Source: Escherichia coli
GTDB taxonomy: Bacteria > Pseudomonadota > Gammaproteobacteria > Enterobacterales > Enterobacteriaceae
DNA length: 64,000 nucleotides
Strand: one strand, 5' to 3'
Assembly (NCBI RefSeq): GCF_017348835.2
Contig: NZ_CP071375.1
Part shown: positions 18,001-21,000 of the stretch, in pieces
Layout: each line of letters begins with the position of its first letter
How positions within the stretch are numbered: the stretch's first letter is position 1
Made by a program: the position numbers

Positions 18001-21000
18001 TCTCCCCCGCCGGGTCTCTTACTCCTCAGATTCGTAAGCTGTGAAGACAGCGACCTCCGTCTGGCCGGTTCGGATTCGTACCTCGCAGAGGTCTTTCCTC
18101 GTTACCAGTGCCGTCACTATGACGGTTAAACAGATGACGATCAGGGCGATTAACATCGCCTTTTGCTGCTTCATAGCCTGCTTCTCCTTGCCTTTCGGCA
18201 CGTAAGAGGCTAACCTACGTGTGTAGAGCATAGATATGGCCTCAGATTAATGTTAAGCGTCTTGCCGGACGCGTAATGTTAACTGGGGCTTTTCTCTATC
18301 TGCCTTTGGTGTTGATGCCCGAGGCAGATAGCCTCAAGCACCCGCAGCAATTCTACTTAACTACCGTTACCTCGCCAATATGAAATCAATCAGAAAGGTG
18401 ATCCATAAGAACAACAGCAAGACAATAAATTGCCATTACAGCAGCAATAGCCAGCGCACATTTGAGAACCAGCACCACAACCTCCTGTATTGGACGTACA
18501 CCAGTCCTGATAAATATGAGGCTGTCTCGTCAGTGATTCAATACAACTACTGGGTATAGTTTCTATGATTTTGTTCTGTGGAAATGGAAAACAGCAACCA
18601 GTCACCACCAGCACTTCTTTAAACATGCCAAGTCACACGCAAGCCAACATTATAGTTCCCTTTGAGCGAGCAGATGAAGCTAGCAAAAATATTGATCACT
18701 TAGGATGCATTACTAACGTTGCTATGTGTTAACGAACAGGGAGTGGGTCATCAGCATAAATATTTATGCAGTAGGTTTCTTTTAGGACTAGATTAATCAA
18801 AAACATTTAGATAAAATTATAAAATCAAGAAATTGGTGGCAATTAATCTTTAATTGTGCCAGCTGAATTTCGTTATTATAGAAGATTAGCTTTTTTTTGA
18901 GTGTTTGGAGAGTAAAATGTTAGAACCACCAAAGAGTTATAATGAAATGTTGCCTATGCTCCATAAGGCGACTTTTATTACTACATTTATATTTTACCTA
19001 TCATTAGTCATTTATGGCTACATGCCATTGGTTGGCATTAATGCCAAGTATATCCCCCCCGTTAAAGACTACGAGGAATTTATTAAATGGATATTAACCT
19101 TTGGCATATTACCAATTGCATCTTCAGTTTTTTGGTCAGTAATTAGTGGAGCTTTAGATCTACATAATAATGTAGCAAAAATTATTGGAATAAGGAAGAT
19201 GTGGGATAGTCATTTAATTATTAAACCATTAGCAAAAATTGCAGGCGTTACGAGAAAATTAACTACTGATGAATCTCACAAGGTAATGAGTAAACTGTAT
19301 TACCCAGAAGTTAAAGAGTTAAAAGACAAACATTACGTTGAACTTTTCTGGAACAAAGTTTATTACTTTTGGGTTTTCTTTGAACATACAGTAATCGCAT
19401 TTGTTACTATTTTAATAATAAGTATCGCCAAATTAACAAATATATTCTCTGTTACTGGCTCTTTAATTAATCTTTGGTTGTGGATTATTTCTCTTGTCGC
19501 ATTTGACTTCCTTATTTTCATAGCATCAGTTAAACCAAGAACAGAAAGCCAAGTAAGACAAATACCTGATAGCAAAATAAAAGAATTCTTTAACAATAAC
19601 AATATTTTTTAAACGAGGTTGATTTTGAATTACAAAATAAATGGAATAAACATACGTTCAGAAAATGCAGCGAAACCGCACACTATGCCATCTAACTATC
19701 TCTGTAAACAGATTGAAAGCACTAATAAAAATGGCAATGCCCTTGATTTTGGATGTGGAAAACTTAGATATTCAGAACAATTAGTAAATAAATTTGAAAC
19801 TGTGACATTTTTAGATTCCAGAAGACAACTAGAAAGAGTGCAAATTATCAGAGGTGTACAAACCACGATTCCAGATTACGTGATAAATAACTATAAGAAT
19901 GCTAATATTGTTTCTTATGAAAATATAGATAAAATAACAAATCATTATGATTTCATACTTTGCGCAAACGTGCTTTCCGCAATTCCATGTGAATCCACAA
20001 TTCACAAAGTCCTCAGTGCGATTAGAGAATTATTAAAGAGTGATGGTGAAGCACTGATTGTCAATCAATACAAAAGTTCTTATTTCAAGAGGTACGAGAG
20101 CGGTATTAAACATTTGCATGGGTATATATACCAAAACTCTCGCAATGCTTTCTACTATGGTTTATTAGATGTGGATACTGTAAGTAAAATATGCTCAGAT
20201 AATAATTTAGAAATAATAAAATCATGGAGCAAAGCAGGTAGTTCATATGTGGTTGTTGGTAAACATATACATATTTAGTTTATTTCAACAAATTATTAGA
20301 AAGAGTGATTTGCTTGTTAATTATTAGCTCGGCAGTGCCGGATCAACATGACCCTGCCACTTAGGCCATTGCCGGTTTACCTACTTTTGTAAGGTTCAGC
20401 ATGAAGTTTTTATATACTCTTCCTAATATCAATAGTGATGCTCGCTTATGTTAGCTGCTTCTTGTACATAGTAGCCTTCTCCGACAGTACTGCAATGAGC
20501 GGAGAGTAAAAGTCGATAAACAATAAGGAGGTTCACAATAAATATTTCTCGGTGAAACTTTCAAAGCATTCTCTGTTTTGCTAAATCGACAATTATAAAT
20601 CAACAACATTTAGTGTTATATCAATATTATTTAGCCTTGCAATCTCTGATGAATCACTTGCTATTTTAGCTTTTAATTTATCAATATTAATCATATCTTC
20701 ATGGCTTATATAAACCATATCACCTTGGTTAACTTTAGATTTGTTCACTATGGCTTGAATAACAGACAAATCATCCATTACACCTCTCATAAATTTCACC
20801 ATGCTTTGATCTTTGAAGTCAGATATCGATTTTGAACGTTGCTTACGTTGAATTGTTCCTTTTGTAATTACTTCATTAATTTCTTTTAAACCAGTGAGCA
20901 TATCAGACAGACTGCCTTCGCAACTCATCCGATGTTTTATTGCATTGCGATTAATAATATTGAGTATAATTTCGAGTGAATCTTTATCACTCCATGGATG

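What the first reader, a model, noticed from the sequence alone, without database searches (positions are those of the whole stretch)
18019..18300. hok/mok type I toxin locus in the prophage (sok antisense expected, not mapped)
A canonical 51-aa Hok toxin with overlapping mok frame is present; the Sok antisense RNA should be encoded on the plus strand across the mok start region but I cannot map its promoter confidently. Together with PemIK in the neighbouring island, the window carries two addiction-type modules.
Basis: partly seen in the sequence, partly recalled or inferred. Interest (0 to 1): 0.3.

Follow-up and report, generated by a model that had tools for sequence, protein, structure and literature searches.

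The report
Complete hokD-type hok/mok/sok prophage module
This is an ordinary, already well-known type I toxin-antitoxin cassette (hokD/hokW-type hok/mok/sok) sitting intact in a decaying lambdoid prophage of an E. coli pig isolate.

Summary

- **ORFs.** Window 18174..18019 (-) encodes a 51-aa Hok (Pfam HOK_GEF, 82.9 bits). Window 18231..18019 (-) is a 70-codon mok. It is in frame with hok, as in K-12 mokC and 933W mokW, and unlike R1.
- **Extent.** The module spans about 17924-18378, wider than the reported interval.
- **Sok.** I map it to the + strand at 18223..~18293. Its promoter is TTGCCT (18188-18193), a 17-nt spacer, then TAACCT (18211-18216). That hexamer was mutated experimentally in hokW/sokW, and its 30-nt context is identical here.
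- **Fold-back elements.** The unconstrained fold of the 418-nt mRNA pairs nt 1-12 with nt 375-387 (tac/fbi). It also pairs GCCCC with the mok Shine-Dalgarno sequence (SD). Removing the 3' end flips the fold to tac/ucb.
- **Conservation.** Every element matches the consensus of 91 relatives.
- **Relation to K-12.** K-12 hokD is the truncated version of this locus. Its breakpoint lies at the sok -35.
- **Context.** The window is E. coli PE164. RefSeq annotates only hokD there. The PemK/MazF pair in the adjacent island is real.
- **Verdict.** Already known, low interest.
- **Side notes.** There is a hypervariable patch at the Sok 5' tail, and an unannotated 30-codon hydrophobic ORF just upstream.

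The parts
18373..18378 (-). hok/mok promoter -35 (TTGGCG)
   Evidence: Found by the consensus scan with a 17-nt spacer to TAGAAT. This hexamer varies among relatives; TTTGCG is the commonest form.
18350..18355 (-). hok/mok promoter -10 (TAGAAT)
   Evidence: Present in 84 of 91 relatives. It aligns with the R1 TATGAT -10, which was validated by suppressor mutations in PMC9841398.
17926..18343 (-). Full-length hok/mok mRNA, about 418 nt. The 5' end is inferred to within 1 nt and the 3' end lies at the terminator T-run.
   Evidence: The 5' end is set by alignment to the R1 +1 (GGCGCUUGAGG) and by the start of the Rfam model. MFE is -173.2 kcal/mol with z = -8.5, and 0 of 100 shuffles fold as well.
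18332..18343 (-). tac, the 5'-end translational activator element (mRNA nt 1-12, GGGUGCUUGAGG)
   Evidence: Pairs with nt 375-387 in the full-length MFE, with pair probabilities 0.97-1.00. Pairs with nt 53-59 after 3' truncation. Invariant in relatives.
18285..18291 (-). ucb, the anti-SD box (mRNA nt 53-59, AAGCCCC)
   Evidence: GCCCC pairs with the mok SD GAGGC in the full-length fold (P 0.98-0.99). AAGCCCC pairs with tac in forms truncated to 360-365 nt. Present in 89 of 91 relatives.
18243..18285 (-). Long imperfect hairpin of the hok leader, which is also the body of Sok on the other strand
   Evidence: Double compensatory changes at pairs 60-100, 61-99, 63-96 and 64-95 among relatives.
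18239..18243 (-). mok Shine-Dalgarno sequence (GAGGC, mRNA nt 101-105)
   Evidence: Invariant in 81 of 81 close relatives. Sequestered by ucb in the full-length fold.
18019..18231 (-). mok ORF, 70 codons, in frame with hok
   Evidence: The ATG is conserved in 86 of 91 relatives, and 69 of 91 give a 70-codon ORF. Same geometry as mokC and mokW.
18206..18210 (-). Candidate dcb (GCCUC, mRNA nt 134-138), complementary to the mok SD. It adjoins the sok -10 (18211-18216) on the opposite strand.
   Evidence: Lies in the conserved block TAGCCTCTTA, present in 86 of 91 relatives. PMC9841398 states that the sok promoter mutation lies in dcb. The SD/dcb pairing itself was not reproduced by my MFE folds.
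18184..18189 (-). hok Shine-Dalgarno sequence (AAGGAG)
   Evidence: The sequence CAAGGAGAA is present in 81 of 91 relatives and is conserved in the R1-type locus.
18019..18174 (-). hok ORF, 51 aa; RefSeq calls it hokD
17957..17969 (-). fbi, the fold-back inhibitory element (mRNA nt 375-387, UCUCAACGCACCC)
   Evidence: Pairs with tac. Relatives mostly have CCUCAACGCACCC; the window's C-to-U change at 17969 turns one G-C pair into G-U.
17924..17950 (-). Intrinsic terminator of the hok mRNA (AACCCGC-UUCG-GCGGGUU followed by a U-run)
18188..18193 (+). sok promoter -35 (TTGCCT)
   Evidence: Aligns with R1 TTGCGC. Present in 84 of 91 relatives. Lies within the 30-nt stretch identical to hokW probe YO-597. 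Homology to K-12 hokD stops exactly here.
18211..18216 (+). sok promoter -10 (TAACCT), 17-nt spacer from the -35
   Evidence: Present in 69 of 91 relatives, and TAATCT in a further 16. It is the hexamer changed in the hokW-sokW(pro-less) construct that lost antitoxin activity (PMC8621323). The generic sigma-70 scan does not detect it.
18223..18293 (+). Sok antisense RNA, about 71 nt. The 5' end is projected, and the 3' end is uncertain by about 6 nt within UUUUCUCU.
   Evidence: The 5' end is 9 nt inside mok, as for annotated sokW (933W) and sokC (K-12). It lies 7 nt after the last base of the -10 (6 nt between). It has a 15-nt single-stranded 5' tail plus a hairpin of -28.6 kcal/mol, z = -5.4, with 0 of 200 shuffles folding as well.

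Best explanation
This is a complete hok/mok/sok type I toxin-antitoxin cassette of about 440 bp, of the hokD/hokW subgroup, carried by a degraded lambdoid (DicB/Qin-type) prophage of E. coli PE164.

Mechanism (shown for R1 and partly for hokW; inferred here). A weak constitutive promoter at 18378-18350 makes a stable mRNA of about 418 nt. In that mRNA the 5' end (tac) is locked to the 3' fbi element, and the mok Shine-Dalgarno sequence is masked by ucb. The full-length RNA is therefore neither translated nor bound by Sok. Slow 3' exonucleolytic trimming removes fbi. tac then re-pairs with ucb, the mok ribosome-binding site opens, and translation of mok (here in frame with hok) allows Hok synthesis.

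Sok is an unstable antisense RNA of about 71 nt, made from a stronger promoter inside mok on the + strand (18223-18293). It pairs through its single-stranded 5' tail with the region around the mok start codon, and the duplex is destroyed by RNase III. If sok transcription stops, the stable mRNA pool matures and Hok depolarises the inner membrane. Sok transcription could stop through loss of the element, host transcription shut-off by an infecting phage, or prophage induction.

Shown here: every sequence element and predicted pairing is present, intact and at family consensus. Inferred: expression, processing, toxicity and biological role.
For: - **Family membership.** Hok passes Pfam HOK_GEF and PHROG 251. 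Rfam RF01794 scores 114 bits.
- **sok promoter.** The sok -35/-10 context is identical over the 30 nt matching the published hokW-locus probe YO-597. The -10 is the hexamer mutated in the promoter-less construct.
- **Full-length fold.** The unconstrained MFE fold gives the tac/fbi lock (pair probabilities 0.97-1.0) and ucb/SD(mok) masking (0.98-0.99). z = -8.5.
- **Truncated fold.** Truncation to 360-365 nt gives tac/ucb and releases the SD from ucb.
- **Sok fold.** A 15-nt free tail plus a hairpin, z = -5.4. Compensatory changes occur in the hairpin.
- **Covariation with R1.** The R1-type locus has GGCGCUU/AAGCGCC where the window has GGGUGC/GCACCC, so the tac/fbi pairing is kept through changes on both sides.
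- **Consensus.** All promoters, SDs, start codons and boxes match the consensus of 91 relatives, and the Hok ORF is intact.
Against: - There are no expression data. The Sok 5' and 3' ends are projected from annotations in other records, not measured.
- The sok promoter fails a generic sigma-70 consensus scan: the -10 matches 3 of 6 positions.
- The SD(mok)/dcb helix of the R1 model was not reproduced by my MFE folds. The predicted switch appears only for some truncation end-points.
- tac/fbi and ucb pairs are nearly invariant among the close relatives, so they carry little covariation signal within that set.
- The chromosomal hokA, hokB and hokC loci that have been tested did not mediate post-segregational killing, according to the introduction of bioRxiv 10.1101/2025.08.07.668861.
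- The host prophage is decaying, with frameshifted integrase, portal and capsid genes, so selection on the cassette could be relaxed.
Confidence: 0.85

Rival explanations
1. The cassette is structurally intact but physiologically silent. The RNAs are made, but the cassette does not kill on loss or stress, like the chromosomal hok/sok loci that failed to give post-segregational killing.
For: The introduction of the bioRxiv survey summarises that hokA (E. coli C), hokB (K-12) and hokC (ECOR24) neither mediated post-segregational killing nor responded to rifampicin. The prophage around the locus is degraded. The window's fbi carries a C-to-U change, and position 18314 carries a base seen in only 1 of 91 relatives.
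Against: The nearest tested relative, hokW-sokW, is about 95% identical with an identical sok promoter context, and it is functional. The hok CDS shows 2.3% mean pairwise divergence with the ORF intact in nearly all relatives, which indicates purifying selection. The C-to-U change in fbi keeps a G-U pair.
Confidence: 0.12
2. The locus is an inactive hok relic lacking its regulatory RNA elements, like K-12 hokD/relF.
For: RefSeq annotates only a hokD CDS here, with no mok and no sok. The K-12 namesake really is truncated.
Against: Homology to K-12 hokD stops at window 18188. The window continues with the full leader, mok start, sok promoter, tac, ucb and hok promoter, and all of these are at consensus. 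The Rfam leader model matches end to end, positions 1-157.
Confidence: 0.02
3. The machinery is the same, but the biological role is not addiction. The cassette would act either as an abortive-infection defence triggered by transcription shut-off from an infecting phage, or as a lysis helper during prophage induction.
For: R1 hok/sok excludes phage T4 (Pecota and Wood 1996, as cited in PMC10305079). hokW-sokW halves Sp5 phage release when it is deleted. hok genes are about four-fold enriched in prophages.
Against: This prophage has frameshifted portal, capsid and integrase genes, so a lysis-helper role cannot benefit it now. The survey found no enrichment of hok next to defence systems. Nothing in the sequence discriminates between the roles.
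Confidence: 0.3

Closest known systems
hokW/mokW/sokW of Stx2 phages 933W and Sp5 (VT2-Sakai)
   Same: 94.9% DNA identity over 408 nt. Both have a 51-aa Hok, an in-frame 70-codon mok, and the same hok -10, tac, ucb, hairpin, SDs and fbi. The sok -35/-10 block is identical (TTGCCT, 17 nt, TAACCT). Both are carried by lambdoid prophages.
   Different: The Hok C-terminus differs: TAYESEE here, VDYESEK in HokW. The Sok 5' tail and mok codons 2-3 differ at 6 of 16 positions. The position within the phage genome differs: here it lies between the replication genes and the ydfU/rusA/Q block, whereas in 933W it lies near the right end. Homology ends just before the terminator.
hokD (relF) of the E. coli K-12 Qin prophage
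   Same: 98.6% identity from the hok SD through the CDS, fbi and terminator (window 18188 to 17900). The prophage neighbourhood is the same, with dicB, dicF, dicA and dicC on one side and ydfU and Q on the other. RefSeq gives both loci the same gene name.
   Different: K-12 has relBE where the leader should be. It lacks the hok promoter, tac, ucb, the Sok target, the mok start and the sok -10. The window holds the complete form. The Hok proteins differ by one residue, S49 here and P49 in K-12.
hokC/mokC/sokC (gef) of E. coli K-12
   Same: About 76% DNA identity. mok is in frame, sokC starts 9 nt inside mokC, and the box order is the same. Rfam RF01794 hits the same (hok-sense) strand.
   Different: The hokC hairpin is 18 nt shorter. 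Annotated sokC is 59 nt, against the ~71 nt projected for Sok here. In K-12, IS186 lies immediately downstream of hokC. The locus is chromosomal, not in a prophage.
hok/mok/sok (parB) of plasmid R1
   Same: The architecture and regulatory logic are the same: tac/fbi, ucb/SD(mok), a dcb overlapping the sok promoter, and Sok across the mok ribosome-binding site. The conserved blocks are GCUUGAGGCU.UCUGCCUC, GAGGCC, AGCCUCUUAC and GCAAGGAGAAG.AGGC.AUGAA.
   Different: R1 mok reads in a different frame from hok (58-nt offset against 57 here). By the published HokW-R1 Hok comparison, protein identity is about 44%. The R1 sok hexamers are TTGCGC and TATCCT. The tac/fbi sequences differ but still pair. 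R1 is plasmid-borne and has a demonstrated post-segregational killing role.

Membership tests
[quoted passage not shown] | Small (about 50 aa) Hok/Gef membrane peptide | tested here: met
   Pfam PF01848 at 82.9 bits against a cutoff of 22, covering model positions 1-42 of 42. PHROG 251 at E = 6e-33.
[quoted passage not shown] | Upstream mok leader ORF with its own SD, overlapping hok | tested here: met
   ATG at 18231 with SD GAGGC 7 nt upstream, giving 70 codons. It is in frame with hok, as in mokC and mokW, and unlike R1.
[quoted passage not shown] | cis-encoded antisense Sok, with its promoter inside mok, complementary to the mok translation-initiation region | tested here: met
   At the sequence level only. 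The promoter is TTGCCT, 17 nt, TAACCT, identical to the tested sokW promoter context. The projected RNA is 18223-18293, with a free 5' tail covering the mok AUG and a terminator-like hairpin, z = -5.4.
[quoted passage not shown] | Long-range 5'-3' pairing (tac/fbi) that locks the full-length mRNA | tested here: met
   Nt 1-12 pair with nt 375-387 in the unconstrained MFE fold, with pair probabilities 0.97-1.00.
[quoted passage not shown] | [quoted passage not shown] | tested here: met
   GCCCC (nt 55-59) pairs with GAGGC (nt 101-105), P = 0.98-0.99.
[quoted passage not shown] | Refolding to tac/ucb after 3' truncation | tested here: met
   The MFE folds of nt 1-365 and nt 1-360 pair nt 1-8 with nt 53-59 and free the SD from ucb. 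Other end-points (374, 370, 355) give mixed folds.
[quoted passage not shown] | SD(mok)/dcb helix in the truncated mRNA | tested here: inconclusive
   A complementary, conserved GCCUC box exists at nt 134-138, but the MFE folds pair the SD elsewhere.
[quoted passage not shown] | Match to the curated RNA family of the hok leader/sok region (Rfam RF01794) | tested here: met
   114 bits against a gathering score of 59, model positions 1-157 of 157. The hit is on the hok-sense strand, as it is in K-12 hokC, 933W and R1-type loci.
[quoted passage not shown] | Hok toxicity, Sok antitoxicity, RNase III cleavage of the duplex, 3' processing of the mRNA | not testable with these tools
   Known only for R1 and, in part, for the ~95%-identical hokW-sokW (PMC9841398, PMC8621323).

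The most novel reading that the evidence does not exclude
The 22-nt patch around the mok start codon, which corresponds to the Sok 5' recognition tail (window 18217-18238), is a diversifying specificity determinant. It is the single most divergent stretch of otherwise ~95%-identical phage-borne cassettes, with 33% mean pairwise divergence against 4.5% elsewhere. It occurs as about six alleles of similar frequency. Under this reading, selection would maintain mutually orthogonal Sok/hok pairs, so that co-resident or incoming cassettes cannot cross-neutralise one another. My one test of this idea, comparing same-genome pairs of cassettes, did not support avoidance of identical alleles.
Probability: 0.2. 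Interest if true: 0.35.

Novelty: already known. Interest (0 to 1): 0.1.

Why it matters
It matters little beyond annotation. The locus is a textbook hok/sok module. Its nearest relative, hokW-sokW, has been characterised experimentally, and its namesake, hokD/relF, is a known K-12 gene.

The useful outputs are practical:
- Coordinates for mok, Sok and the regulatory boxes, which RefSeq omits for this strain.
- The point that 'hokD' in most E. coli genomes is a complete toxin-antitoxin module, whereas the K-12 reference copy is a truncated relic.
- A caution that Rfam's 'sok' family reports the hok-sense strand.

The variable Sok-tail patch could be of modest interest for questions of antisense specificity among the many hok/sok copies in E. 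coli genomes.

Tried and rejected
1. **Generic sigma-70 scan for the sok promoter.** It found nothing on the + strand. The promoter was located by homology and from the published mutagenesis primers instead.
2. **Guess that the unannotated 454-bp gap in Sakai Sp5 (L005 13116-13570) was hokW.** The alignment showed no homology. hokW was found through the phage collection.
3. **Covariation support for tac/fbi, ucb/SD and tac/ucb among 91 relatives.** The pairs are almost invariant, so the set is uninformative. Only the Sok hairpin and the comparison with R1 show compensatory changes.
4. **SD(mok)/dcb helix.** It was not reproduced by MFE folding of the truncated forms.
5. **Orthogonality test.** I asked whether cassettes from the same host genome avoid identical Sok tails. 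Of 15 same-genome pairs, 7 were identical, against 10.7% for random pairs. This gives no support, although some contigs may be redundant.
6. **Upstream 30-codon hydrophobic ORF.** It has no Pfam, NCBIfam or PHROG hit. The codon-position bias is weak at 12/9/5. It is left open.
7. **Sub-threshold Rfam hits in the region** (isrK, ceN48, CRISPR-DR46, rsmX, Fungi_SRP). I dismissed them as chance or terminator-like matches.
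Full report
**Observation**

- hok is 18174..18019 and encodes 51 aa: MKQQKAMLIALIVICLTVIVTALVTRKDLCEVRIRTGQTEVAVFTAYESEE.
- A 70-codon ORF starts at 18231 and shares hok's stop codon.
- Hok matches Pfam HOK_GEF over the whole model (82.9 bits, cutoff 22). It also matches PHROG 251 'MokW-like host killing'.
- Rfam RF01794 ('sok') hits 18343..18169 at 114 bits against a gathering score of 59.

The signal is not a chance match. The 601-bp region is 100% identical to loci annotated hokD in 11 complete E. coli genomes. In total, 4768 of 5426 genomes hold a match, with a median of 2 and a maximum of 10 places per genome.

**Identity of the window and context**

The window is E. 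coli strain PE164, a pig isolate (NZ_CP114128.1). Window coordinate x equals 1911823 minus the record coordinate.

hokD lies in a lambdoid, DicB/Qin-type prophage integrated next to tRNA-Ser and mtfA, at roughly window 1-29900. Its gene order is: integrase, exonuclease, dicB, DicF, dicA/dicC, ydaT-like gene, replication genes, methyltransferase, hokD, DUF968 (ydfU-like), rusA, Q, tRNA genes, lysis genes, then terminase and head genes. The prophage is decaying. Its integrase, portal and major capsid genes are frameshifted, ydfD and terB carry internal stops, and an IS3-family element is inserted before the holin gene.

An AbrB/MazE-type antitoxin gene and a PemK/MazF toxin gene sit at window ~37270-37860, in an integrase/IS66 island at a tRNA-Asn gene. 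RefSeq annotates only the hokD CDS at this locus, with neither mok nor sok.

**mok**

In this locus mok is an in-frame N-terminal extension of hok, with a 57-nt offset. In the R1-type reference (L003, whose Hok is 100% identical to R1 Hok) the offset is 58 nt, and mok reads in another frame. K-12 mokC/hokC and 933W mokW/hokW are annotated with the same in-frame geometry. This is therefore the normal state of the hokC/D/W subgroup, not a defect.

**Mapping Sok**

Three independent lines converge.

1. *Annotated relatives.* Phage 933W (AF125520) annotates a 71-nt sokW whose 5' end lies 9 nt inside mokW. K-12 annotates a 59-nt sokC that starts 9 nt inside mokC. The window aligns to 933W at 94.9% identity over 408 nt. 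That projects the Sok 5' end to + strand position 18223.
2. *Promoter geometry.* Upstream of 18223 lie TTGCCT (18188-18193), a 17-nt spacer and TAACCT (18211-18216), with 6 nt between the -10 and the start. These hexamers align with R1's TTGCGC and TATCCT.
3. *Published mutagenesis.* In the hokW-sokW study (PMC8621323), primer YO-421 of the 'promoter-less' construct changes exactly this hexamer, and that construct lost antitoxin activity. Probe YO-597 (30 nt) is identical to window 18186-18215.

The projected RNA (18223-18293) folds into a 15-nt single-stranded 5' tail, which covers the mok AUG on the target. This is followed by a long hairpin and UUUU(CUCU). The MFE is -28.6 kcal/mol, z = -5.4, and 0 of 200 shuffles fold as well. 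The generic sigma-70 scan misses this promoter because the -10 matches only 3 of 6 positions. The same weak match to consensus holds for the homologous R1 hexamers.

*Caution on Rfam.* RF01794 is named 'sok', but it matches the hok-sense strand here. It does the same in K-12 hokC, 933W and the R1-type locus, where sok is annotated on the opposite strand. Its 157-position consensus structure is the hok mRNA leader. The hit identifies the locus, not the Sok strand.

**Fold-back elements**

- *hok promoter.* It is TTGGCG (18378-18373), 17 nt, then TAGAAT (18355-18350). The -10 aligns with the R1 TATGAT box, which was validated by suppressor mutations.
- *mRNA 5' end.* It is at 18343 or 18342, by alignment to the R1 +1.
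- *Terminator.* It is at 17950-17933, followed by a T-run.
- *tac/fbi.* Folding the 418-nt transcript without constraints pairs nt 1-12 (tac, 18343-18332) with nt 375-387 (fbi, 17969-17957). Pair probabilities are 0.97-1.00.
- *ucb/SD(mok).* GCCCC (nt 55-59, within ucb) pairs with the mok SD GAGGC (nt 101-105) at P = 0.98-0.99.
- *Overall stability.* The molecule is far more stable than shuffles, with z = -8.5.
- *The switch.* Truncating to 360-365 nt removes fbi. The 5' end then re-pairs with AAGCCCC (nt 53-59), and the SD is released from ucb. This is the switch described for R1.
- *dcb.* The SD/dcb helix was not reproduced, although a conserved complementary GCCUC box lies right next to the sok -10 on the opposite strand. 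Its position is consistent with the statement in PMC9841398 that the sok promoter mutation lies in dcb.

**Conservation**

A motif scan of viral contigs returned 120 loci and yielded 91 unique cassettes. Most are 92-98% identical to the window, over a discrete block of about 440 bp that runs from just upstream of the hok -10 to the terminator.

In the window every element is the consensus form:

| Element | Relatives sharing the window's form |
|---|---|
| hok -10 | 84 of 91 |
| mok ATG | 86 of 91 |
| hok ATG | 86 of 91 |
| sok -35 | 84 of 91 |
| sok -10 | 69 of 91 (TAATCT in a further 16) |
| ucb | 89 of 91 |
| dcb block | 86 of 91 |

The fbi element differs from the majority by one C-to-U change, which keeps a G-U pair.

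The tac/fbi and ucb pairs are nearly invariant in this set, so they carry no covariation signal. The Sok hairpin does show double compensatory changes at four pairs. Between subfamilies, the R1-type locus has GGCGCUU/AAGCGCC where the window has GGGUGC/GCACCC.

**Relation to K-12 hokD**

K-12 hokD (relF) is 98.6% identical to the window, but only from window 18188 downward (mRNA nt 156 onward). The breakpoint falls at the sok -35, and relBE lies upstream of it. The K-12 gene is therefore a truncated relic. The window carries the complete locus under the same gene name.

**Mechanism and function**

The best-supported explanation is the standard hok/sok mechanism, as set out under the best explanation. 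I give about 0.85 that the module is complete and organised as described. I give somewhat less, about 0.7, that it is physiologically active. Tested chromosomal hok/sok loci failed to give post-segregational killing, and there are no expression data for this strain.

The role cannot be decided from sequence. Three roles have precedent: prophage or region stabilisation, abortive infection on transcription shut-off, and help with lysis at induction. The last cannot benefit this defective prophage now.

**Side observations**

1. *Variable patch.* mRNA nt 106-127 (window 18238-18217) covers the mok start context, mok codons 2-3 and the Sok 5' tail. It is the most divergent 22-nt stretch of the transcript, with 33% mean pairwise divergence, against 4.5% for the rest of the transcript and 2.3% for the hok CDS. 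Four columns reach about 1.8 bits, and about six alleles occur at similar frequency. A test of whether co-resident cassettes avoid identical alleles was negative: 7 of 15 same-genome pairs were identical.
2. *Upstream small ORF.* A 30-codon hydrophobic ORF at 18478..18386 (-) has an AGGAGG box and ends 8 nt before the hok -35. It stays open in all 18 relatives that share the flank. It has no family hit, and none of the four phage genomes containing it annotates it on that strand. The codon-position evidence is weak.
3. *Possible RNA-editing site.* The Tyr47 codon of hok lies in GCUUACGAAUC (UACG context, 18039-18029). A survey reports TadA A-to-I recoding of hokC, hokD and hokE at the corresponding position.

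**Verdict**

The locus is a known kind and a known gene. The contribution here is annotation of Sok, mok and the regulatory boxes. Interest is low.

Noticed in passing
window 18217-18238 (mRNA nt 106-127; Sok nt ~1-16 plus the 6 nt before its start): This is a hypervariable patch in otherwise ~95%-identical cassettes. Mean pairwise divergence is 33%, against 4.5% in the rest of the transcript. It is the most divergent 22-nt window of the transcript, with about six alleles of similar frequency and a 2-nt indel variant that shifts mok out of frame. It coincides with the Sok recognition tail and mok codons 2-3. A same-genome test for avoidance of identical alleles was negative.
   Followed up: partly
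window 18386-18478 (-): An unannotated 30-codon hydrophobic ORF (VVLVLKCALAIAAVMAIYCLAVVLMDHLSD), preceded by AGGAGG, ends 8 nt before the hok -35. It is open in all 18 relatives that share this flank, with conservative substitutions. It has no Pfam, NCBIfam or PHROG hit. Codon-position bias is weak (12/9/5). The overlapping + strand 59-codon ORF loses its ATG or gains a stop in some relatives.
   Followed up: partly
window 18169-18343 (-); L004, L006, L003: Rfam RF01794, named 'sok antitoxin', matches the hok-sense strand (the hok mRNA leader) in the window and in three reference loci where sok is annotated on the opposite strand. A strand call taken from this family would put Sok on the wrong strand.
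   Followed up: yes
window 18188 (breakpoint); L002 (K-12 1645119-1645633): Homology to K-12 hokD/relF (98.6%) begins exactly at the sok -35, and relBE replaces everything upstream. The K-12 reference 'hokD' is a truncated relic of the complete cassette seen here. RefSeq labels both hokD and annotates neither mok nor sok in strain PE164.
   Followed up: yes
window 18029-18039 (-), Tyr47 codon UAC at 18034-18036: The hok Tyr47 codon sits in the conserved GCUUACGAAUC (UACG) context, which resembles the tRNA-Arg anticodon loop. A recent survey states that hokC, hokD and hokE mRNAs are A-to-I edited by TadA at the corresponding position, recoding it to Cys. Only the sequence context was checked here.
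   Followed up: partly
window ~1-29900: The host prophage is defective. The integrase, portal and major capsid genes are frameshifted, ydfD and terB-like genes have internal stops, and an IS3-family element is inserted between the SASA esterase and holin genes. Three copies of that IS3-family element, with identically scoring ALIL pseudoknots, lie at 10612, 44096 and 57111.
   Followed up: no
window 31010, 54835, 57969, 60376 (tRNA-Asn); 37270-37860; ~39244-43701: Four tRNA-Asn genes score identically. The one at 31010 is followed by an integrase/IS66 island that carries an AbrB/MazE plus PemK/MazF pair, an LA2681-family HEPN protein and a 946-aa hypothetical protein. Rfam hits lie in the same island: EFASI (36526-36655), C4 antisense RNA with its a1b1 target, and isrK (38927-39132).
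   Followed up: no
window 17969 and 18314: There are two window-specific bases in the hok mRNA. A C-to-U change in fbi (6 of 91 relatives) converts a tac/fbi G-C pair to G-U. A C at mRNA nt 30 is seen in only 1 of 91 relatives and lies in the loop of the 5' hairpin.
   Followed up: partly
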